Shown: in pieces, positions 52,360 through 55,223 of the stretch
Position numbering within the stretch: the first letter of the stretch is position 1
How the letters are laid out: each line of letters begins with the position of its first letter
Sequence record: PQ356295.1
Source of the DNA: Escherichia phage KKE7M
Reading direction: 5' to 3' (one strand)
Length of the DNA stretch: 64,000 nt
Made by a program: the position numbers and the translations under genes
Notes under the pieces: model-generated
Database searches by the model: none
Seen by the model: the letters and a program-made list of their open reading frames with translations, nothing else
What the model was told of the DNA's origin: nothing

Positions 52360-52435
52360 TGGTCGTGGTAAACGGAGTCGAACCGTTGTTTCTCGATTAT
52401 CGGTCGAGTGTACTAACCATCTGTACGATACCACA
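52360..52435 (-). tRNA. tRNA-Ile (anticodon GAU)
   Basis: Hand-folded cloverleaf: 7-bp acceptor, T-arm AACGG/CCGTT with loop TTCGACT, anticodon loop CCGAUAA (C at position 33), CCA encoded. Confidence 0.75.
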
Positions 52436-52440
52436 ATAAT

Positions 52441-52514
52441 TGGCAGCAAGGTGAGGAATCGAACCCCTTGATCTATGGTTTGGAGCCATATTGAGTACCA
52501 TACTCTTTTAAATC
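52441..52514 (-). tRNA. tRNA-Trp-like (anticodon CCA), possibly a pseudogene
   Basis: Canonical T-arm, anticodon arm (loop CUCCAAA) and D-arm, but the 5' acceptor strand does not pair with the 3' strand. Confidence 0.4.
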
Positions 52515-52581
52515 TACCCAGCTATGAGTTCCTTGAAGTGTCAATGTAACTTAATCATTACACCAGAAGGGAGGTATTTAG

Positions 52582-52660
52582 TGGAGGCGGGAATCGGATT
52601 TGAACCGATGATCTCCAGCATATGAAACTGGCGAGGACGACCAGACTCCTCTATCCCGCG
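52582..52660 (-). tRNA. tRNA-Met (anticodon CAU) with unpaired 1:72 position
   Basis: Cloverleaf folds with 6 of 7 acceptor pairs; terminal pair is C x C; anticodon loop UUCAUAU. Confidence 0.7.
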
Positions 52661-52675
52661 CAATCTGTAGTAATT

Positions 52676-52760
52676 TGGTAGCTAAGGTGAGACTCGAACT
52701 CACAATCCCTTGGGGCAATACGTTCTAAGCGTATCGTGTATACCATTCCACCACTTAGCC
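52676..52760 (-). tRNA. tRNA-Leu (anticodon UAG), class II
   Basis: 85 nt; T-arm GTGAG/CTCAC, anticodon loop CUUAGAA, 14-nt variable arm, 3-bp D-stem. Confidence 0.8.
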
Positions 52761-52837
52761 ATAATAAGTACACCACTGTAAGAAGCCTCAATGTGCTATT
52801 GACAGTTAACCAAGTCTACTCCTTGGATGGTGTTATT

Positions 52838-52912
52838 TGGTGCAGAGAGATGGTAACGATCCATCCTTTCTACCTTTTCAGGGTAGCACTAATCCGTCTC
52901 AGCTATCTCTGC
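52838..52912 (-). tRNA. tRNA-Phe (anticodon GAA) with non-canonical T-loop
   Basis: Perfect acceptor and anticodon stems (loop CUGAAAA); T-loop reads ATCGTTA instead of TTCGAAT. Confidence 0.7.
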
Positions 52913-52917
52913 AAATT

Positions 52918-52993
52918 TGGTCAGTGCGGCAGGACTCGAACCTGCGACCTGAAGCGTCCAAGGCTCCCACGCTACCAACTGCGCTACGCACTG
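52918..52993 (-). tRNA. tRNA-Pro (anticodon UGG)
   Basis: Perfect 7-bp acceptor, T-arm GCAGG/CCTGC with TTCGAGT loop, anticodon loop CUUGGAC. Confidence 0.8.
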
Positions 52994-53000
52994 TAAATCT

Positions 53001-53075
53001 TGGCTGGAGATCTAGGAATCGAACCTAGTCATCACGACTTCAAAGGCCGTTGCCTTCCCACTAGGCTAATCTCCA
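53001..53075 (-). tRNA. tRNA-Gln (anticodon UUG)
   Basis: Perfect acceptor, T-arm CTAGG/CCTAG, anticodon loop CUUUGAA, discriminator G. Confidence 0.8.
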
Positions 53076-53103
53076 ATAAAACTAAAAATCACTTAAAAAG
53101 AAC

Positions 53104-53156
53104 CGCTAGAGTTTGAAGGAGAAAACCATGAGCGAAAAGAGAAATTTTCTCTAGCG
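53104..53156. other. Structured intergenic element in tRNA array: 8-bp stem CGCTAGAG/CTCTAGCG enclosing an SD + 8-codon mini-ORF (53128-53154, plus strand)
   Basis: Inverted repeat and nested AGAGA/TCTCT hairpin read directly; AAGGAG 6 nt before ATG AGC GAA AAG AGA AAT TTT CTC TAG; T-run follows on minus strand. Confidence 0.35.
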
Positions 53157-53174
53157 ATTCCATTTAAATAATCT

Positions 53175-53249
53175 TGGAGCGAGTAACAGGACTTGAACCT
53201 GCACCTGGAGGGTGGAAACCTCATATGCTACCATTAACACTATACCCGC
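53175..53249 (-). tRNA. tRNA-Gly (anticodon UCC)
   Basis: Acceptor with one G-U pair, T-loop TTCAAGT, anticodon loop UUUCCAC, discriminator U. Confidence 0.75.
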
Positions 53250-53260
53250 TTAACAATATT

Positions 53261-53290
53261 ACTCTAACATATTATTAGCCCCTTTGTCAA
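53261..53290 (-). promoter_or_regulatory. Sigma70-like promoter P1: TTGACA -N18- TAGAGT with TGn, 12 nt upstream of tRNA-Gly
   Basis: Perfect -35, TGtTAGAGT extended -10 on minus strand. Confidence 0.5.
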
Positions 53291-53304
53291 GAGGCTTTTG
53301 ATAT

Positions 53305-53634
53305 TTATTTTAAAATAGTAGATGCACCACGTCTGTTTAGATATGCAACAGTAAAGTCCAAATCACCTATTTCTTCAGGTTCCCACTGACCTTCTAAGCC
53401 ATAGCAAGAACAATGATATGCGTGTACTTCATAAAACAGAGATGTTTTCATATCATAAAAATAAACGTGAGATTCACCTTCATAATATGCACAGTCATAA
53501 GTGGCAGAAAGAATTACAATGTTATCCTTATCTAACTCTACTTCATAATATCTTTCAACATCTTCGATATCATCAAAACCATCGAAAACATTGATGTTAA
53601 AATATTTCTCTAACTCTTTTTCTGTCACATACAC
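53305..53634 (-). CDS. Hypothetical protein (109 aa) inside the tRNA array
   Basis: ORF in track, acidic, Cys/His-containing. Confidence 0.5.
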   Translation of the reverse strand: MYVTEKELEKYFNINVFDGFDDIEDVERYYEVELDKDNIVILSATYDCAYYEGESHVYFYDMKTSLFYEVHAYHCSCYGLEGQWEPEEIGDLDFTVAYLNRRGASTILK

Positions 53635-53651
53635 TCCTTTAGAGTTAAAAT

Positions 53652-53816: not shown

Positions 53817-53901
53817 TGGCGATGGATCAAGGATTTGAACCTTGCTAGAACTTTCGTTCACGGATTAACAGTCCGTCGCCCAACCACTAGGCCAATCCAT
53901 C
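53817..53901 (-). tRNA. tRNA with Asn anticodon GUU and a long (15-nt) variable arm
   Basis: Perfect acceptor, T-arm CAAGG/CCTTG, anticodon arm ACGGA-CUGUUAA-UCCGU, discriminator G; extra arm GAAC-GAAA-GTTC gives a class II shape unusual for Asn. Confidence 0.6.
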
Positions 53902-53908
53902 TTTAATT

Positions 53909-53995
53909 TGGTGCAGGTAGTTGGACTCGAACCAACGAAGCCCCGAAGGGCAAGAGATTTACAGTCTCCAGCAATTGCCGCTATGCGATACCTAC
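53909..53995 (-). tRNA. tRNA-Tyr (anticodon GUA), class II
   Basis: 87 nt; T-loop TTCGAGT, anticodon loop CUGUAAA, variable hairpin GCCC-CGAA-GGGC, 3-bp D-stem. Confidence 0.8.
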
Positions 53996-54000
53996 GTGTT

Positions 54001-54075
54001 TGGTACATCGTGAAGGATTCGAACCTTCGCTCCCTTGATTAAAAGTCAAGTGCCTTACCGCTTGGCTAACGATGC
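54001..54075 (-). tRNA. tRNA-Lys (anticodon UUU)
   Basis: Acceptor with one G-U pair, T-arm GAAGG/CCTTC, anticodon loop CUUUUAA; 5' end overlaps the HNH gene stop. Confidence 0.8.
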
Positions 54076-54435
54076 ATACTCTTTACACCACCGTGTATGT
54101 CCAGCATAAGCCTTTGTACTATGGAATACTGCTCCGCAAACACACACCGTGGTTCTAATTCTGTTTCCCATGTCTTGGGAAATTCTTGTCTTCTTCATGT
54201 GACAAGCATGACACAAAAGTTGACATTTGGCAAGTTCTTCTTGCCATTTAGCCTCCGAACATGAACTCATTCGACTAATATAAAACTTCTTCTCGCTTGA
54301 ATCTTTATGATCAAATTCCAAGTCATCTACAGACCCACAATTAACACATTTACCTCCAAGCTGGAGGATTGCGGAAGCTCTTCGCTTCTGCCACCGAGTT
54401 TTCATGTATTCCCGCATATAATCATTACTTGGCAT
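54055..54435 (-). CDS. HNH homing endonuclease
   Basis: CVNCGSVDDLEFDHKD...LLCHACH motif; GGAGG RBS; last 21 nt overlap tRNA-Lys. Confidence 0.75.
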   Translation of the reverse strand: MPSNDYMREYMKTRWQKRRASAILQLGGKCVNCGSVDDLEFDHKDSSEKKFYISRMSSCSEAKWQEELAKCQLLCHACHMKKTRISQDMGNRIRTTVCVCGAVFHSTKAYAGHTRWCKEYASLAKR

Positions 54436-54512
54436 ACATCCTCCTCGTATAAATTATCTTTAAAATAGCCAGTGTTTGCGGCACTTAGCTATGAAGTATT
54501 GGGGTATCGGTA

Positions 54513-54530
54513 AAGTGGTTGCCGCCACTT
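54513..54530 (-). other. Intergenic hairpin AAGTGG-TTGCCG-CCACTT upstream of HNH gene
   Basis: Perfect 6-bp inverted repeat in a 145-nt tRNA-free spacer; no U-tract. Confidence 0.25.
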
Positions 54531-54582
54531 GCCGAAGATTTACTCTGCTAAAGTAAGAGTACAAGCTACATTAAAGATAACT

Positions 54583-54668
54583 TGGCGGTAGATGTAGGAC
54601 TTGAACCTACACGCCGTTTCCGACGACAGTTTAGCAAACTGTTGTGGCTACCATTTCACCAATCTACC
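54583..54668 (-). tRNA. tRNA-Ser (anticodon GCU), class II
   Basis: 86 nt; perfect acceptor, T-arm GTAGG/CCTAC, anticodon arm ACAGT/ACTGT with loop UUGCUAA, discriminator G. Confidence 0.8.
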
Positions 54669-54713
54669 ATTTTTAATTATTCAAAACAACCTGAATCTGT
54701 TACTAATTGAATT

Positions 54714-54803
54714 TGGAGGAAGATAATGGAGTCGAACCATCACCGTATCGCTACAATGGGCCAGGGTTCAAACCTGGTTGCGCACCGCTGCGCCCTACCT
54801 TCC
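54714..54803 (-). tRNA. tRNA-Ser (anticodon UGA), class II
   Basis: 90 nt; anticodon arm CCAGG-UUUGAAC-CCTGG, T-loop TTCGACT, long variable arm, 3-bp D-stem. Confidence 0.75.
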
Positions 54804-54818
54804 CGTTATCATACTTTA

Positions 54819-54848
54819 AATCTAACATAAAACTATCTTGCTTGTCAA
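54819..54848 (-). promoter_or_regulatory. Sigma70-like promoter P2: TTGACA -N18- TAGATT with TGn, 15 nt upstream of tRNA-Ser(UGA)
   Basis: Perfect -35 and TGtTAGATT on minus strand; nearly identical to P1. Confidence 0.5.
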
Positions 54849-54867
54849 GTAGTTTTTAAAAACTTTT

Positions 54868-54949
54868 TGGCCGGGGTGACAGGATTCGAACCTGCATACT
54901 CCAATTACTCGGTTAACGCCTGATTAGAAGTCAGGTGAGATACACCCCG
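54868..54949 (-). tRNA. tRNA-Arg-like (anticodon UCU), atypical: no recognisable D-arm
   Basis: Perfect 7-bp acceptor (CGGGGTG/CACCCCG), canonical T-arm, canonical anticodon stem-loop CCUGA-CUUCUAA-UCAGG, but only 7 nt between acceptor and anticodon stem and a 23-nt extra region with a GUAA-capped hairpin. Confidence 0.45.
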
Positions 54950-54960
54950 TTTTCACAGTA

Positions 54961-54989
54961 ACTATAACAAAAAACTAAGTAAATGTCAA
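54961..54989 (-). promoter_or_regulatory. Sigma70-like promoter P3: TTGACA -N17- TATAGT with TGn, 12 nt upstream of the Arg-like tRNA
   Basis: Perfect -35 and TGtTATAGT on minus strand. Confidence 0.5.
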
Positions 54990-55030
54990 GATATTTTTAC
55001 TAAAATTATTATTTAAATTGAAGCCTAGGT

Positions 55031-55116
55031 TGGTGCAAGTGGAGGGATTCGAACCCTCAATCATTTAAGCGTTGCGTTTTAAGCACAATGTGTATCACCA
55101 ATTCCACCACACTTGC
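55031..55116 (-). tRNA. tRNA-Leu (anticodon UAA), class II
   Basis: 86 nt; perfect acceptor, T-arm GAGGG/CCCTC, anticodon loop CUUAAAA, long variable region. Confidence 0.75.
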
Positions 55117-55147
55117 ATATAGGAGATGCATAGCACCTCCTTTTAAA

Positions 55148-55223
55148 TGGTGGTTCCCCAGGGTTACAATCCCTGCCCTCGACACTTATGAGGTGTGCGC
55201 TCTCGTCAGTGAGCTATGGAACC
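55148..55223 (-). tRNA. tRNA with CAU anticodon (Met or lysidine-type Ile), non-canonical T- and D-loops
   Basis: Acceptor with one mismatch, anticodon loop CUCAUAA, T-loop ATTGTAA, D-loop without GG. Confidence 0.5.

What the first reader, a model, noticed from the sequence alone, without database searches (positions are those of the whole stretch)
52360..55223. Phage tRNA array with several non-canonical members
About 18 tRNA genes lie on the minus strand, most with encoded CCA. Several deviate from the standard cloverleaf: a Trp(CCA)-like gene whose 5' acceptor strand cannot pair (52441-52514); a Met(CAU) gene with a C x C mismatch at 1:72 (52582-52660); Phe(GAA) with T-loop ATCGTTA; a tRNA-like element with an 8-nt T-loop (53733-53810); and a CAU tRNA lacking both the D-loop GG and the T-loop TpsiC (55148-55223). 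This concentration of oddities suggests relaxed or altered constraints, or roles beyond decoding.
Basis: seen in the sequence. Interest (0 to 1): 0.5.

Follow-up and report, generated by a model that had tools for sequence, protein, structure and literature searches.

The report
Phage tRNA array with rewired tRNAs
A phi92-type coliphage carries 18 tRNA-shaped genes, and the odd-looking ones are conserved alternative designs rather than broken copies, including an apparently undescribed, phage-wide arginine tRNA whose D-arm is split and relocated to the far side of the anticodon arm.

Summary
The region is the tRNA gene array of a phi92-like E. coli myophage (Justusliebigvirus; 99.4% identical to phage EC_OE_11). 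I count 18 tRNA-shaped genes on the minus strand, 17 with encoded CCA. The fifth, the Trp acceptor, is a mis-assignment: the 5' strand lies 9 nt further upstream.

None of the odd members looks like decay. Each is conserved in other phage lineages with compensatory changes:
- The C1xC72 Met tRNA is initiator-like.
- Phe has a swapped 54-58 pair.
- The second CAU tRNA has G19-C56 changed to A19-U56.
- Trp(CCA) has an 8-bp acceptor, a 4-bp T stem and a 10-nt connector.
- The element with the 8-nt T-loop has no anticodon loop.

It is a tRNA-Arg(UCU) with no D-arm in the usual place. A 3-bp D-stem forms between nt 11-13 and a triplet 3' of the anticodon arm, followed by a D-loop-like motif UAANNGGA..AU. 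This family is in 255 cultured phage genomes and many viral and metagenome contigs. All four helices covary, and it carries only Arg anticodons. It is almost always unannotated, and I found no description of it. Function in translation is inferred, not shown.

The parts
52360..52435 (-). tRNA-Ile(GAU), canonical
   Evidence: ARAGORN; Rfam tRNA 57.3 bits.
52441..52523 (-). tRNA-Trp(CCA) with 8/4 architecture. Layout: 8-bp acceptor AGCTGGGT/ACCTTGCT (52523-52516 with 52452-52445); 10-nt connector AGATTTAAAA; D arm GAGT-ATGGT-ACTC; anticodon loop CTCCAAA; 4-bp T stem GGGG/CCTC; G73; CCA.
   Evidence: ARAGORN finds it only with -ps; Rfam 22.9 bits, below the gathering score of 29. On 7 homologues from 4 phage groups, 93% of cells pair, 9 pairs show changes on both sides, and 0 of 500 shuffles reach the observed values. 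The 8th pair varies as UA, UG, CG and AU.
52582..52660 (-). Initiator-like tRNA-Met(CAU): C1xC72 mismatch, G2-C71, C3-G70, G4-C69, A11:U24, U73. The anticodon stem CCAGU/GCUGG lacks the three G-C pairs.
   Evidence: ARAGORN and Rfam 49 bits. It is 74% identical to E. coli metY, which lies upstream of rimP. Variants in relatives have 1:72 as AxC, UxC, CxU, UxU or U-A.
52676..52760 (-). tRNA-Leu(UAG), class II, canonical
52838..52912 (-). tRNA-Phe(GAA) with T-loop AUCGUUA (A54 and U58 in place of U54 and A58)
   Evidence: The same T-loop occurs in Citrobacter phage Tr1 at 77% identity with acceptor covariation. Other relatives have TTCGATA or CTCGATA. phi92's annotation marks this gene as pseudo.
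52918..52993 (-). tRNA-Pro(UGG), canonical
53001..53075 (-). tRNA-Gln(UUG), canonical
53175..53249 (-). tRNA-Gly(UCC), canonical; promoter-like site at 53290-53261 upstream
53652..53726 (-). tRNA-Thr(UGU), canonical
53733..53809 (-). tRNA-like RNA without an anticodon loop. Layout: acceptor GGACTTG/CGAGTCC; T arm with the 8-nt loop TATCGAAT; the anticodon position holds a long hairpin (CCAG...CTGG closing 14 nt). No encoded CCA.
   Evidence: Rfam tRNA 27.5 bits, below the gathering score; ARAGORN finds it only at -ps80. It is 92-100% identical in 87 phage records, including Phapecoctavirus. The phi92-type variant keeps the fold with compensatory changes in the acceptor, the T stem and the hairpin, and has a 6-nt loop.
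53817..53901 (-). tRNA-Asn(GUU) with a class-II-like variable arm GAAC-GAAA-GUUC (85 nt)
   Evidence: In phage anhysbys the arm is GTTC-GAAA-GAAC, i.e. compensatory.
53909..53995 (-). tRNA-Tyr(GUA), class II
54001..54075 (-). tRNA-Lys(UUU). Its 5' end is overlapped by the HNH ORF.
   Evidence: 72.8 bits. It exists as two alleles about 80% identical among relatives.
54055..54435 (-). HNH homing-endonuclease ORF inserted in the array
   Evidence: ORF; annotated 'putative homing endonuclease' in EC_OE_11; absent (gapped) in most related arrays.
54583..54668 (-). tRNA-Ser(GCU), class II
54714..54803 (-). tRNA-Ser(UGA) with a Sec-like D arm (5-bp stem GCGCA/UGCGC, 4-nt loop) and a 12-bp acceptor/T branch that can be drawn as 8/4 or 9/3. 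A promoter-like site lies at 54848-54819.
   Evidence: ARAGORN. The best Rfam hit is tRNA-Sec at 35.3 bits, below its gathering score of 47. The D stem covaries (GCGCA/TGCGC versus GCGTA/TACGC), and related forms occur in Felixounavirus, T5-like phages and Mydovirus. phi92 marks it as pseudo.
54868..54949 (-). tRNA-Arg(UCU) with a transposed D-arm. Layout, 5' to 3': acceptor 54949-54943; U8 A9 54942-54941; U 54940; D-stem strand CUC; A 54936; anticodon arm 54935-54919 (loop CUUCUAA); linker CGUUAACC 54918-54911; D-stem strand GAG; D-loop-like UAAUUGGAGUA plus U; T arm 54895-54879; acceptor 54878-54872; G73; CCA.
   Evidence: Rfam tRNA 38.6 bits, with the D arm deleted in the alignment; missed by ARAGORN. 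The family model R1 scores this copy 95 bits and ordinary tRNAs no more than 33 bits.
54937..54939 (-). CUC: the 5'-located strand of the relocated 3-bp D-stem of the Arg tRNA
   Evidence: It covaries with the triplet before UAANNGGA. In 53 of 60 metagenomic members all 3 positions pair, in 11 Watson-Crick triplet combinations plus one with a G-U pair. Shuffles give a mean of 14.6 and a maximum of 24 in 2000.
54896..54910 (-). GAG (54910-54908) followed by UAAUUGGAGUA-U. These correspond to the relocated D-stem 5' strand and D-loop: G10 A11 G12 U13 A14 A15 N16 N17 G18 G19 A20 .. A21, then U48.
   Evidence: GAGTAA, GGA and the T before the T stem are invariant in 61 sequences, and the A before that T is at least 90% conserved. 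The two positions between them are free, matching the variable 16/17 positions of D-loops.
54961..54989 (-). Promoter-like site TTGACA-17-TATAGT with an extended -10 TG, ending 12 nt upstream of the Arg tRNA
   Evidence: 11 of 12 matches. This is a consensus match only.
55031..55116 (-). tRNA-Leu(UAA), class II
55148..55223 (-). CAU tRNA, probably Ile2-type, with tertiary pair 19-56 as A-U (D-loop ACUGACGA, T-loop AUUGUAA), A54/U58, an A7xG66 mismatch, and A73-CCA
   Evidence: ARAGORN; no Rfam tRNA hit. Invariant in about 50 Justusliebigvirus records. Relatives in Salmonella phage SSBI34 and Erwinia phage FBB1 have ACTGGYGA plus ATCGTAA. phi92 labels it 'hypothetical tRNA'.
55528..55557 (-). 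Promoter-like site heading the first transcription unit (small ORF, CAU tRNA, Leu)

Best explanation
This is the tRNA gene array of a phi92-type (Justusliebigvirus) coliphage. It holds 18 tRNA-shaped genes in several promoter-headed units, interrupted by small ORFs and an HNH homing endonuclease. About ten members are canonical.

The irregular members are maintained by selection. They fall into four kinds.
1. An identity feature mistaken for a defect. The 1:72 mismatch of the first CAU tRNA belongs to the bacterial initiator/formylation set.
2. Compensated tertiary pairs. These are A54-U58 in Phe and in the second CAU tRNA, and A19-U56 in the second CAU tRNA.
3. Alternative architectures that should still give an L-shape. 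These are an 8/4 Trp(CCA) with a 10-nt connector, a Ser(UGA) with a Sec-like D arm, an Asn(GUU) with a long variable arm, and an Arg(UCU) with a transposed D-arm. In the Arg tRNA the D-stem 3' strand directly follows U8-A9, while the D-stem 5' strand and D-loop sit between the anticodon arm and the T arm.
4. One tRNA-like RNA with no anticodon loop.

Most likely working (inferred):
- The anticodon-bearing members are processed and charged by host enzymes.
- They supply decoders for codons that the AT-rich phage uses heavily, such as AGA, AUA, UUA and CUA. The Arg(UCU) variant is the phage's only AGA decoder.

Speculative: the unusual bodies may make these tRNAs poor substrates for tRNA-targeting host defences, or distinguishable from host tRNAs.

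Shown here: sequence, conservation, covariation, distribution and codon usage. Not shown: expression, charging and ribosomal use.
For: Identity of the locus:
- 99.4% identical to EC_OE_11 and 95.9% to phi92, with matching tRNA annotation.

Constraint:
- The odd members have 0-2.4% variable sites against 10.7% in spacers.

Arg(UCU) family:
- 61 distinct IMG/VR sequences pair in 98.6% of cells. 16 of 20 pairs show changes on both sides. Covariation is 0.752 against 0.189 in shuffles (0 of 500) and 0.09-0.13 in the slid controls.
- With the D triplets left free in the search, 53 of 60 members pair at all three positions, in 11 Watson-Crick triplet combinations plus one with a G-U pair. Shuffles reach at most 24.
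- U8 and A9 are at least 90% conserved. GAGUAA, GGA and the U before the T stem are invariant, and the A before that U is at least 90% conserved.
- With the anticodon left free, 56 of 58 members are UCU and 2 are CCU.
- In 97 loci that carry the element, only 6 have a separate Arg(tct). Arrays of 22-33 tRNAs carry Arg acg, cct or tcg but no canonical tct.
- The window has no other Arg tRNA, while AGA makes up 30% of its Arg codons.
- The family is in 255 cultured phage records. Only 3 true copies occur in 185,579 species genomes, all on MAG contigs.
- The bacterial Arg identity set is A20, C35, U/G36 and A/G73 (PMC9976931). All are present if the relocated GGA is read as G18 G19 A20.

Other members:
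- Trp. A1-U72, G2-C71, A9 and G73 are invariant and match the Trp identity set.
- First CAU tRNA.
- Second CAU tRNA.
- Phe and Ser.
- Promoter-like sites.
Against: - There is no expression, processing, aminoacylation or ribosome data for any member.
- The family sets were retrieved with sequence patterns that fixed the anticodon loop, UAANNGGA and GTTCRA. Conservation of those motifs is therefore partly by construction, although each was left free in at least one scan.
- The three-dimensional reading of the Arg tRNA (which relocated nucleotide plays A14, A15, G18, G19, A20 or A21) is inferred from motif resemblance, not modelled.
- A subgroup carries an extra GUC...GAC pairing around the insert. 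With the D-stem this would form a pseudoknot.
- The window's Trp copy has a weak acceptor stem (a 4:69 UxU mismatch and a G5-U68 pair).
- The initiator-like tRNA lacks the three G-C pairs usually needed for P-site selection.
- The anti-defence rationale has no evidence in this window.
Confidence: 0.8

Rival explanations
1. The irregular members are decaying pseudogenes under relaxed constraint. The phage is losing tRNAs it no longer needs, and phi92's annotators were right to flag Phe and Ser(UGA) as pseudo.
For: - phi92's annotation marks Phe and Ser(UGA) as pseudo and the second CAU gene as 'hypothetical tRNA'.
- Rfam scores are below gathering for Trp (22.9 bits), 53733-53809 (27.5 bits) and Ser(UGA), and there is no hit for the second CAU tRNA.
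- The window's Trp acceptor stem has a mismatch and a wobble pair.
Against: - The odd members vary no more than canonical tRNAs and far less than spacers.
- Each oddity recurs in distant phage groups at 73-86% identity with compensatory changes in stems and tertiary pairs.
- There are no frameshift-like indels inside the helices.
Confidence: 0.04
2. The irregular members, including the Arg(UCU) variant, are tRNA mimics that do not decode. They could be decoys for host tRNA-targeting nucleases or other tRNA-binding defence proteins, or processing and regulatory RNAs that kept an anticodon-like loop by descent.
For: - 53733-53809 has no anticodon loop, yet its fold is conserved, so at least one member cannot decode.
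- Phage tRNAs have been proposed to counter tRNA-targeting defences (PMC10264068, listed).
- The altered bodies could impair use by EF-Tu or the ribosome.
Against: - In the Arg family the anticodon is restricted to UCU or CCU in 58 of 58 members when left free.
- The family is complementary in occurrence to canonical Arg(tct).
- It retains the ArgRS identity nucleotides.
- Trp keeps CCA, G73, A1-U72 and A9.
- The phage uses AGA heavily and has no other Arg tRNA.
Confidence: 0.13
3. The irregularities are artefacts of folding by hand. Automated tools give ordinary cloverleaves.
For: - The Trp 'unpaired acceptor' was a boundary error.
- ARAGORN draws cloverleaves for both CAU tRNAs and for Phe.
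Against: - The same drawings show the C1xC72 mismatch, the ATCGTTA and ATTGTAA T-loops, and the D-loop without GG.
- Rfam aligns the Arg element only by deleting the whole D arm.
- Two elements fall below threshold in both tools.
Confidence: 0.03

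Closest known systems
Canonical phage tRNA-Arg(UCU), e.g. the Phapecoctavirus gene next to its CAU tRNA; T4 tRNA-Arg (from memory)
   Same: Anticodon loop CUUCUAA; a standard TTCGA-type T-loop; A/G73. The D-loop sequence UAAUGGAUA closely resembles the relocated UAAUUGGAGUA. Both sit in phage tRNA arrays and presumably decode AGA.
   Different: In the window's gene, the D-stem 5' strand and D-loop are not between nt 9 and the D-stem 3' strand. They lie 3' of the anticodon arm. The D-stem is only 3 bp, and the molecule is a three-way rather than a four-way junction.
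D-arm-lacking mitochondrial tRNAs, e.g. nematode and metazoan mt-tRNA-Ser (PMC7609411)
   Same: There is no D hairpin at the canonical position. A short connector joins the acceptor and anticodon stems.
   Different: The mitochondrial forms lose the D-loop/T-loop elbow contacts and become flexible. The phage Arg family keeps a canonical T-loop and a relocated D-loop motif (A14, A15, G18, G19, A21 and U48 equivalents), and a covarying D-stem.
8/4 and 9/3 tRNAs: tRNA-Sec, allo-tRNAs, and the (8/4) tRNA-Ser and tRNA-His of bacteriophages (Mukai et al. 2017, PMC5389517)
   Same: Trp(CCA) has an 8-bp acceptor and a 4-bp T stem, with covariation at the 8th pair. Ser(UGA) has a 12-bp branch that can be drawn as 8/4 or 9/3, and a Sec-like D arm with a 5-bp stem and a 4-nt loop.
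   Different: Trp has a 10-nt connector and an ordinary short D arm. The passages of that paper returned by my term search name only Ser and His, not Trp, as phage 8/4 tRNAs. For Ser(UGA), the 8/4, 9/3 and 7/5 drawings could not be told apart.
Bacterial initiator tRNA-fMet (E. coli metY)
   Same: 74% identity. It shares the unpaired 1:72 position, G2-C71, C3-G70, G4-C69, A11:U24 and the CAU anticodon. These are the formylation determinants listed in PMC9976931.
   Different: The anticodon stem is CCAGU/GCUGG instead of three consecutive G-C pairs. The anticodon loop is UUCAUAU. In this window position 73 is U, the D-loop is 11 nt, and the mismatch is CxC rather than CxA.
Permuted tRNA genes of the red alga Cyanidioschyzon merolae (from memory, not tested)
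   Same: tRNA segments are encoded in a non-canonical order.
   Different: There the whole gene is circularly permuted and processing restores a canonical tRNA. Here the rearrangement is internal and cannot be undone by circularisation, so the mature RNA itself must have the new topology.
T4 stable 'species 1 and 2' RNAs encoded in the T4 tRNA cluster (from memory, not tested)
   Same: Small, stable, tRNA-cluster-encoded RNAs of unknown function. This is an analogy for the anticodon-less element at 53733-53809.
   Different: No sequence comparison was made. The window element is a 77-nt cloverleaf-like RNA with an 8-nt T-loop.

Membership tests
tRNA (Rfam RF00005) | Score at or above the gathering threshold of 29 bits | tested here: met
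   13 canonical or near-canonical members score 48-72.8 bits. The Arg(UCU) variant scores 38.6, the initiator-like Met 49 and Phe 49.2.
tRNA (Rfam RF00005) | Score at or above gathering for the remaining four elements | tested here: not met
   Trp scores 22.9 bits and 53733-53809 scores 27.5. The best hit for Ser(UGA) is tRNA-Sec at 35.3, below its threshold of 47. The second CAU tRNA has no hit at E<=10. ARAGORN default does call Ser(UGA) and the second CAU tRNA.
Canonical cloverleaf tRNA | D hairpin (stem 10-13/22-25 plus loop) between nt 9 and nt 26 | tested here: not met
   In the Arg(UCU) gene, only 5 nt lie between U8-A9 and the anticodon stem. Rfam aligns it with 15 model positions deleted.
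Transposed-D-arm tRNA-Arg family (defined here) | Acceptor, anticodon and T helices supported by covariation | tested here: met
   98.6% of cells paired, 16 of 20 pairs with changes on both sides, 0 of 500 shuffles. The window copy scores 95 bits on model R1.
Transposed-D-arm tRNA-Arg family (defined here) | A 3-bp helix between nt 11-13 and the triplet preceding UAANNGGA | tested here: met
   53 of 60 members pair fully, with the second pair as GC 27, UA 15, CG 13 and AU 5. Shuffles give a mean of 14.6 and a maximum of 24. The window has CUC/GAG.
Bacterial tRNA-Arg (ArgRS identity set: A20, C35, U/G36, A/G73; PMC9976931) | C35, U36 and A/G73 | tested here: met
   Anticodon UCU and G73 in the window. 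UCU or CCU in 58 of 58 members.
Bacterial tRNA-Arg (ArgRS identity set) | A20 in the D-loop variable pocket | tested here: inconclusive
   An invariant A follows the invariant GG in the relocated motif. Its equivalence to A20 is inferred.
Bacterial tRNA-Arg | Aminoacylation by ArgRS and decoding of AGA | not testable with these tools
   The only support is indirect: complementarity with canonical Arg(tct) and AGA usage.
Bacterial initiator tRNA-fMet | Unpaired 1:72, G2-C71, C3-G70, G4-C69 and R11:Y24 | tested here: met
   The window has C1xC72, and six variant states in relatives are all mismatched or weak. A11:U24 is kept.
Bacterial initiator tRNA-fMet | Three consecutive G-C pairs at 29-31/39-41 of the anticodon stem (established knowledge) | tested here: not met
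   The pairs are A29-U41, G30-C40 and U31-G39 in all phage variants. It therefore works 'like' an initiator for formylation features only, and I do not file it as a bona fide initiator.
8/4 tRNAs (Mukai 2017) | 8-bp acceptor stem plus 4-bp T stem | tested here: met
   For Trp(CCA), pair 8:65 varies as UA 4, AU 1, CG 1 and UG 1, while 49:65 would be mismatched in a 7/5 drawing.
8/4 tRNAs (Mukai 2017) | 8/4 (or 9/3) rather than 7/5 for Ser(UGA) | tested here: inconclusive
   The nucleotides that would discriminate (A8 G9, GA before the T stem, and UU) are invariant in all homologues. The Sec-like D arm is supported.
Bacterial tRNA-Trp (identity: G73, A1-U72, G2-C71, G3-C70, G4-C69, G5-C68, A9, CCA) | G73, A1-U72, G2-C71, A9 and anticodon CCA | tested here: met
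   All are invariant in the 7 homologues.
Bacterial tRNA-Trp | G3-C70, G4-C69 and G5-C68 | tested here: not met
   3:70 is C-G or G-C, 4:69 is mismatched in 6 of 7, and 5:68 is G-U.
tRNA-Ile2 (lysidine-modified CAU) | CAU anticodon, A73 and C4-G69 | tested here: inconclusive
   CAU and A73 are present. Relatives have GGCCC acceptors (C4-G69), but the window has U4-A69. The only E. coli-collection hit for a relative is a plasmid tRNA-Ile. The lysidine modification cannot be tested here.
tRNA pseudogene | Substitution rate like neutral spacers; loss of pairing; patchy presence | tested here: not met

The most novel reading that the evidence does not exclude
The gene at 54868-54949 represents a previously undescribed natural tRNA architecture. 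It is a translationally active tRNA-Arg(UCU/CCU) in which nt 10-21 (the D-stem 5' strand and D-loop) have been transposed to between the anticodon arm and the T arm. This gives a three-way junction that rebuilds the canonical tertiary core (U8-A14, A15-U48, G18/G19 with the T-loop, A20, A21).

The family is widespread and essentially phage-specific. It occurs in Felixounavirus, Justusliebigvirus, Mydovirus, Sugarland-type T5-like phages, jumbo coliphages and many uncultured phages. In those genomes it replaces the canonical AGA decoder.
Probability: 0.5. Interest if true: 0.85.

Novelty: new variant of a known kind. Interest (0 to 1): 0.7.

Why it matters
The array itself is ordinary phage biology. 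What matters is what the 'odd' genes turn out to be.

- **Annotation gap.** Standard tRNA finders and curators discard or mislabel them. The Arg variant is unannotated in most of the cultured-phage records whose annotation I saw. Phe and Ser(UGA) are called pseudogenes in phi92. Phage tRNA repertoires and codon-supply analyses for Felix O1-like, phi92-like, Mydovirus and jumbo coliphages are therefore systematically missing an AGA decoder, among others.
- **A natural experiment in tRNA folding.** If the transposed-D-arm Arg tRNA is charged and used by the ribosome, it shows that the L-shape and ArgRS recognition can be rebuilt from a different strand topology. That bears on tRNA folding rules, synthetase recognition, orthogonal tRNA design and covariance-model design.
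- **A testable question.** So many structurally divergent but conserved tRNAs in one array asks whether phages reshape tRNA bodies to escape host tRNA-targeting defences.

Tried and rejected
- **Rfam's D-armless alignment of the Trp element** (AGTATGG as the acceptor 5' strand). Rejected because that strand does not pair in the Zyzzx and Tr1 homologues, whereas GAGT/ACTC covaries as a D stem.
- **ARAGORN's -ps register for the Trp acceptor** (GGTAGATT). Rejected in favour of AGCTGGGT, which shows covariation at 3:70, 6:67 and 8:65.
- **A self-contained hairpin inside the Arg insert** (CCGA-GUAA-UUGG). Rejected because its closing pair A:N is not maintained (N is U, C, G or A).
- **RNAalifold for the Arg D-stem.** It does not predict the 3-bp D-stem on energy grounds. 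The stem rests on covariation only.
- **Retrieving relatives through the small ORF inside the array**. This gave mostly unrelated loci and only 3 useful ones.
- **An exact-pattern scan for Ser(GCU) in IMG/VR.** It gave only 4 contigs.
- **A pattern scan for the 8-nt-T-loop element.** It found only Stephanstirmvirinae plus one false positive, so no deeper homologues are available.
- **Searching E. coli genomes with a relative of the second CAU tRNA.** This gave only one weak plasmid tRNA-Ile hit, so its isotype stays inferred.
- **The association between the nucleotide after CUC and the nucleotide before GAG** (A/C against C/A). It is suggestive of juxtaposition but confounded by subfamily structure, so I do not use it as evidence.
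- **Nine literature searches and five papers consulted**. They found no description of the Arg architecture. The library lacks most subscription journals, so prior description cannot be excluded.

Full report
**Identity of the region**

The window segment 52000-55600 is 99.4% identical to Escherichia phage EC_OE_11 and 95.9% identical to phage phi92 (Justusliebigvirus, Stephanstirmvirinae). 54 phage records cover at least 80% of it. Both annotated records show the same tRNA array between a nicotinamide phosphoribosyltransferase gene and the spanin and terminase genes. phi92's annotators flagged tRNA-Phe and tRNA-Ser(UGA) as pseudo, and called the last CAU gene a 'hypothetical tRNA'.

**Checking the observation**

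- ARAGORN with defaults finds 15 tRNAs, all between 52360 and 55223 on the minus strand, and none elsewhere in the 64 kb.
- Rfam at gathering score finds 14, including one ARAGORN misses (54871-54949, 38.6 bits). It misses Ser(UGA) and the CAU gene at 55148-55223.
- At relaxed thresholds the Trp-like element scores 22.9 bits and the element at 53733-53809 scores 27.5 bits, against a gathering score of 29. ARAGORN finds them at -ps and -ps80.
- That makes 18 tRNA-shaped genes, 17 with encoded CCA.
- The ARAGORN drawings confirm C1 opposite C72 in the first CAU tRNA, T-loop ATCGTTA in Phe, the 8-nt T-loop TATCGAAT, and D-loop ACTGACGA with T-loop ATTGTAA in the second CAU tRNA.

The exception is the Trp acceptor, discussed below.

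**Is it decay?**

I aligned the arrays of seven Justusliebigvirus genomes and counted variable sites per feature.

| Feature | Variable sites |
|---|---|
| Canonical tRNAs | 0-3.9% |
| Trp | 2.4% |
| Phe | 0% |
| Ser(UGA) | 0% |
| Arg variant | 1.2% |
| Second CAU | 0% |
| Spacers | 10.7%, plus indels |

Three genes (the first CAU tRNA, Lys, and the 53733-53809 element) exist as two exchanged alleles rather than as drifting copies. Relaxed constraint is therefore not supported within the genus. The comparisons with other genera below show compensatory change.

**The first CAU tRNA (52582-52660)**

- It is 74% identical over 94% of its length to an E. coli tRNA-Met present at a median of four copies per genome. 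The K-12 copy I fetched lies directly upstream of rimP, which identifies it as metY, an initiator tRNA gene.
- The phage gene shares CGCGGG at the 5' end, G2-C71, C3-G70, G4-C69 and A11:U24.
- In relatives, position 1:72 is CxC, AxC, UxC, CxU, UxU or U-A. The bases change but the position stays unpaired or weak.
- These are the formylation determinants listed in PMC9976931.
- The anticodon stem (CCAGU/GCUGG) lacks the three consecutive G-C pairs of bacterial initiators.

I therefore call it initiator-like and do not file it as a proven initiator.

**Phe(GAA) and the second CAU tRNA**

- Phe's T-loop AUCGUUA has A at position 54 and U at 58, where standard tRNAs have U54 and A58.
- The same loop is present in Citrobacter phage Tr1 at 77% identity, with a covarying acceptor stem. 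Mydovirus and another contig have TTCGATA or CTCGATA. This is a swap of the two partners of the 54-58 tertiary pair.
- The second CAU tRNA is invariant in about 50 Justusliebigvirus records.
- Its relatives in Salmonella phage SSBI34 (Vequintavirinae) and Erwinia phage FBB1 (T4-like) have D-loop ACTGGYGA and T-loop ATCGTAA. The window has ACTGACGA and ATTGTAA.
- The only differences in the two loops are G19 to A and C56 to U. The G19-C56 elbow pair has become A19-U56.
- G18 and U55 are kept, and so are the A54/U58 swap and an A7xG66 mismatch.

The 'missing GG and T-psi-C' is thus a compensated tertiary pair. The relatives' GGCCC acceptor, A73 and CUCAUAA loop resemble tRNA-Ile2, and ATA is used at 10 per 1000 codons here. 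The window's own acceptor is GGUUCCA, so the isotype remains an inference.

**Trp(CCA)**

Homologues occur in Klebsiella phage FKP3 and an uncultured relative, in Citrobacter phage Tr1, in Hafnia phage Zyzzx (Ounavirinae) and in Pectobacterium phage POP17 (Certrevirus).

- Aligning them shows that the acceptor 5' strand is AGCYGRG plus one more nucleotide.
- The best-supported structure has:
  - an 8-bp acceptor stem;
  - a 10-nt A/U-rich connector;
  - a 4-bp D stem with the 5-nt loop ATGGY;
  - two nucleotides before the anticodon arm;
  - a 4-bp T stem.
- On seven sequences, 93% of cells pair and nine pairs change on both sides. These include 3:70, 6:67 and the eighth pair (UA, UG, CG, AU). 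0 of 500 shuffles reach the observed values, and the slid controls pair at 40-55%.
- A1-U72, G2-C71, A9, G73 and CCA are invariant, matching much of the bacterial Trp identity set.

Two other registers, from Rfam and ARAGORN, fail on the divergent homologues.

**The element at 53733-53809**

- It is 92-100% identical in 87 records, including the sister genus Phapecoctavirus.
- phi92-type genomes carry a variant only 73% identical.
- The two variants keep:
  - the acceptor (GGACUUG/CGAGUCC versus UGCUUG/CAAGCA);
  - the T stem (GCAGG/CCUGU versus GUAGG/CCUAC);
  - the 8-nt T-loop (UAUCRAAU).
- Both also have a hairpin in the anticodon position whose stem covaries (CCAG/CUGG versus CUAG/CUAG). 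Its loop is 14 nt in one variant and 6 nt in the other.
- There is no 7-nt anticodon loop and no encoded CCA.

It is a conserved tRNA-like RNA that cannot decode. Its function is unknown. A decoy or a protein-binding role is a guess. No homologue was found outside Stephanstirmvirinae.

Rfam aligns it only by deleting the D arm and inserting 20 nt in the variable region. A 96-nt query finds full-length relatives at 82-86% identity in Felixounavirus, a T5-like Klebsiella phage, Mydovirus and another Vequintavirinae phage.

*Helices.* Pattern scans of IMG/VR gave 97 loci and 61 distinct sequences.
- The acceptor, anticodon and T helices pair in 98.6% of cells, with changes on both sides in 16 of 20 pairs.
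- The covariation score is 0.752, against 0.189 in shuffles (0 of 500) and 0.09-0.13 in the slid controls.
- A covariance model built from them scores the window copy at 95 bits and ordinary tRNAs at 33 bits or less.

*Conserved unpaired positions.*
- U8 and A9 are at least 90% conserved. The triplet CUC is invariant.
- After the anticodon arm and a 3-10 nt linker comes the invariant GAGUAA-NN-GGA.
- A U immediately before the T stem is invariant, and the A before it is at least 90% conserved.
- This reads as G10 A11 G12 U13 A14 A15 N16 N17 G18 G19 A20 ... A21 U48. That is a normal D-stem 5' strand and D-loop, with the usual hypervariable 16/17 positions, placed after the anticodon arm.
- UCUC-A then reads as nt 22-25 plus 26.
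- The relocated loop UAAUUGGAGUA closely resembles the D-loop UAAUGGAUA of the canonical Phapecoctavirus tRNA-Arg(UCU).

*The decisive test.* I scanned metagenomes with the triplet before UAANNGGA left free.
- Among 60 well-formed members, the connector triplet and that triplet pair at all three positions in 53.
- There are 11 Watson-Crick triplet combinations plus one with a G-U pair: CGG/CCG 16, CUC/GAG 14, CCC/GGG 8, CGC/GCG 3, CAG/CUG 3, and others.
- 2000 shuffles gave a mean of 14.6 and a maximum of 24.

The relocated D-stem is therefore supported by covariation. The assignment of individual tertiary contacts is inference.

**Does the Arg variant decode?**

| Evidence |
|---|
| With the anticodon loop left free, 56 of 58 distinct members have UCU and 2 have CCU, both Arg AGR anticodons |
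| Position 73 is G in the window copy and A in EC_OE_11 and the Felixounavirus copies, though not in all members. The bacterial Arg identity set is A20, C35, U/G36 and A/G73 |
| In 97 loci with the element, ARAGORN finds a separate Arg(tct) in only 6. Arrays of 22-33 tRNAs carry Arg acg, cct or tcg but lack canonical tct |
| The window and its relatives have no other Arg tRNA |
| AGA is 30% of Arg codons here (11.7 per 1000). From general knowledge it is among the rarest E. coli codons |
| A near-consensus promoter-like site with an extended -10 ends 12 nt upstream (consensus match only) |

The family is in 255 cultured phage records. It is unannotated or covered by spurious ORFs in most of the listed rows. 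Occasionally it is labelled 'tRNA', 'tRNA-OTHER' or 'tRNA-Undet'. In one genome per species across 185,579 prokaryotic species there are only three true copies, all on MAG contigs.

These facts point to a working AGA/AGG decoder, but charging and ribosomal use are untested. I give 0.13 to the possibility that this and the other irregular members are non-decoding mimics.

**Other members**

- Ser(UGA) has a 5-bp D stem with a 4-nt loop that covaries (GCGCA/UGCGC versus GCGUA/UACGC). Its acceptor/T branch can be drawn as 8/4 or 9/3. Related forms are in Felixounavirus, T5-like phages and Mydovirus. This fits the '(8/4) tRNA-Ser found in bacteriophages' of Mukai et al. (PMC5389517). The nucleotides that would decide between 8/4, 9/3 and 7/5 never vary.
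- Asn(GUU) has a class-II-like variable arm, GAAC-GAAA-GUUC. In phage anhysbys it is compensated to GUUC-GAAA-GAAC.

**Comparison with what is known**

- The array as such is known.
- 8/4 tRNAs, Sec-like D arms and initiator features are known kinds.
- I found no description of a tRNA whose D-stem 5' strand and D-loop lie 3' of the anticodon arm.
  - It is absent from a 2020 review of natural non-canonical tRNAs, which mentions no phage tRNAs (PMC7609411).
  - It is absent from the 2017 survey of novel cloverleaves.
  - Nine full-text searches did not find it.
- The library omits most subscription journals, so prior description cannot be excluded.

**Limits**

- All family sets were gathered with sequence patterns. 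Motifs fixed in one scan were freed in another, but never all at once.
- E-values from the short-calibrated model are rough.
- Promoter matches are consensus matches only.
- No experiment supports expression or charging.
- Why a single array concentrates so many re-engineered tRNAs is unexplained. Escape from tRNA-targeting host defences (the idea of PMC10264068) is a hypothesis I could not test here.

Noticed in passing
window 54055-54435 (-), overlapping tRNA-Lys 54001-54075: An HNH homing-endonuclease ORF overlaps the first 21 nt of tRNA-Lys. It is absent from most related arrays. Genomes without it carry a Lys allele only about 80% identical, which looks like homing with co-conversion of the flanking tRNA.
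   Followed up: partly
window 53817-53901 (-): tRNA-Asn(GUU) is 85 nt with a stem-loop variable arm (GAAC-GAAA-GUUC). In bacteria that is normally a class II feature limited to Leu, Ser and Tyr. The arm is compensated in Phapecoctavirus anhysbys. Whether SerRS could mischarge it was not examined.
   Followed up: partly
window 53076-53174 (-), spacer between Gln and Gly: A long imperfect inverted repeat (GAATCGCTAGAG ... CTCTAGCGGTTC) is followed by a T-run. It may be a terminator or a processing structure. phi92 has a much longer spacer here, annotated as a small 'rIII-like' ORF.
   Followed up: no
window 54436-54582 (-), between Ser(GCU) and the HNH start codon: A 147-nt stretch has no ORF or tRNA call. 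It contains GC-rich complementary segments (GGCAAGTGGCGGCAACCACTTTACC). It was not analysed.
   Followed up: no
L046 1116-1191 (phage ESCO8): ESCO8 has an extra tRNA-Met gene between the initiator-like Met and Leu(UAG), which the window lacks. Array content therefore varies within the genus.
   Followed up: no
L047 4849-4922 and L048 4984-5058 (Phapecoctavirus CAU tRNA): The CAU tRNA at the head of the Phapecoctavirus array has the T-loop AUCGAAA. From memory, A54 and A60 are the pattern of eukaryotic initiator tRNAs. It has a GGCCC acceptor like tRNA-Ile2 and is followed directly by a canonical Arg(UCU).
   Followed up: no
L054 2613-2697 (Klebsiella phage Roth49): A second gene annotated 'tRNA-OTHER' lies in the same T5-like array that carries the Arg variant. 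It may be another non-canonical tRNA.
   Followed up: no
window 54003-54075, 55033-55116 and 55150-55223, plus strand: The weak Rfam 'Plastid-ycf2 5'UTR' and 'Plastid-psbI-rps4' hits are antisense images of tRNA genes, not real elements.
   Followed up: yes
phage records MG065639, MG065656, MG065689 ('Campylobacter phage', 146,366 bp): These records are 98-100% identical to the E. coli Justusliebigvirus array. They are probably mislabelled or contaminant genomes.
   Followed up: no
Arg-family subgroup, e.g. L091, L097, L118, L144: Four members carry complementary GUC...GAC insertions flanking the relocated D segment. Together with the D-stem this would form a pseudoknot. It suggests the two ends of the insert lie close in space.
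   Followed up: partly
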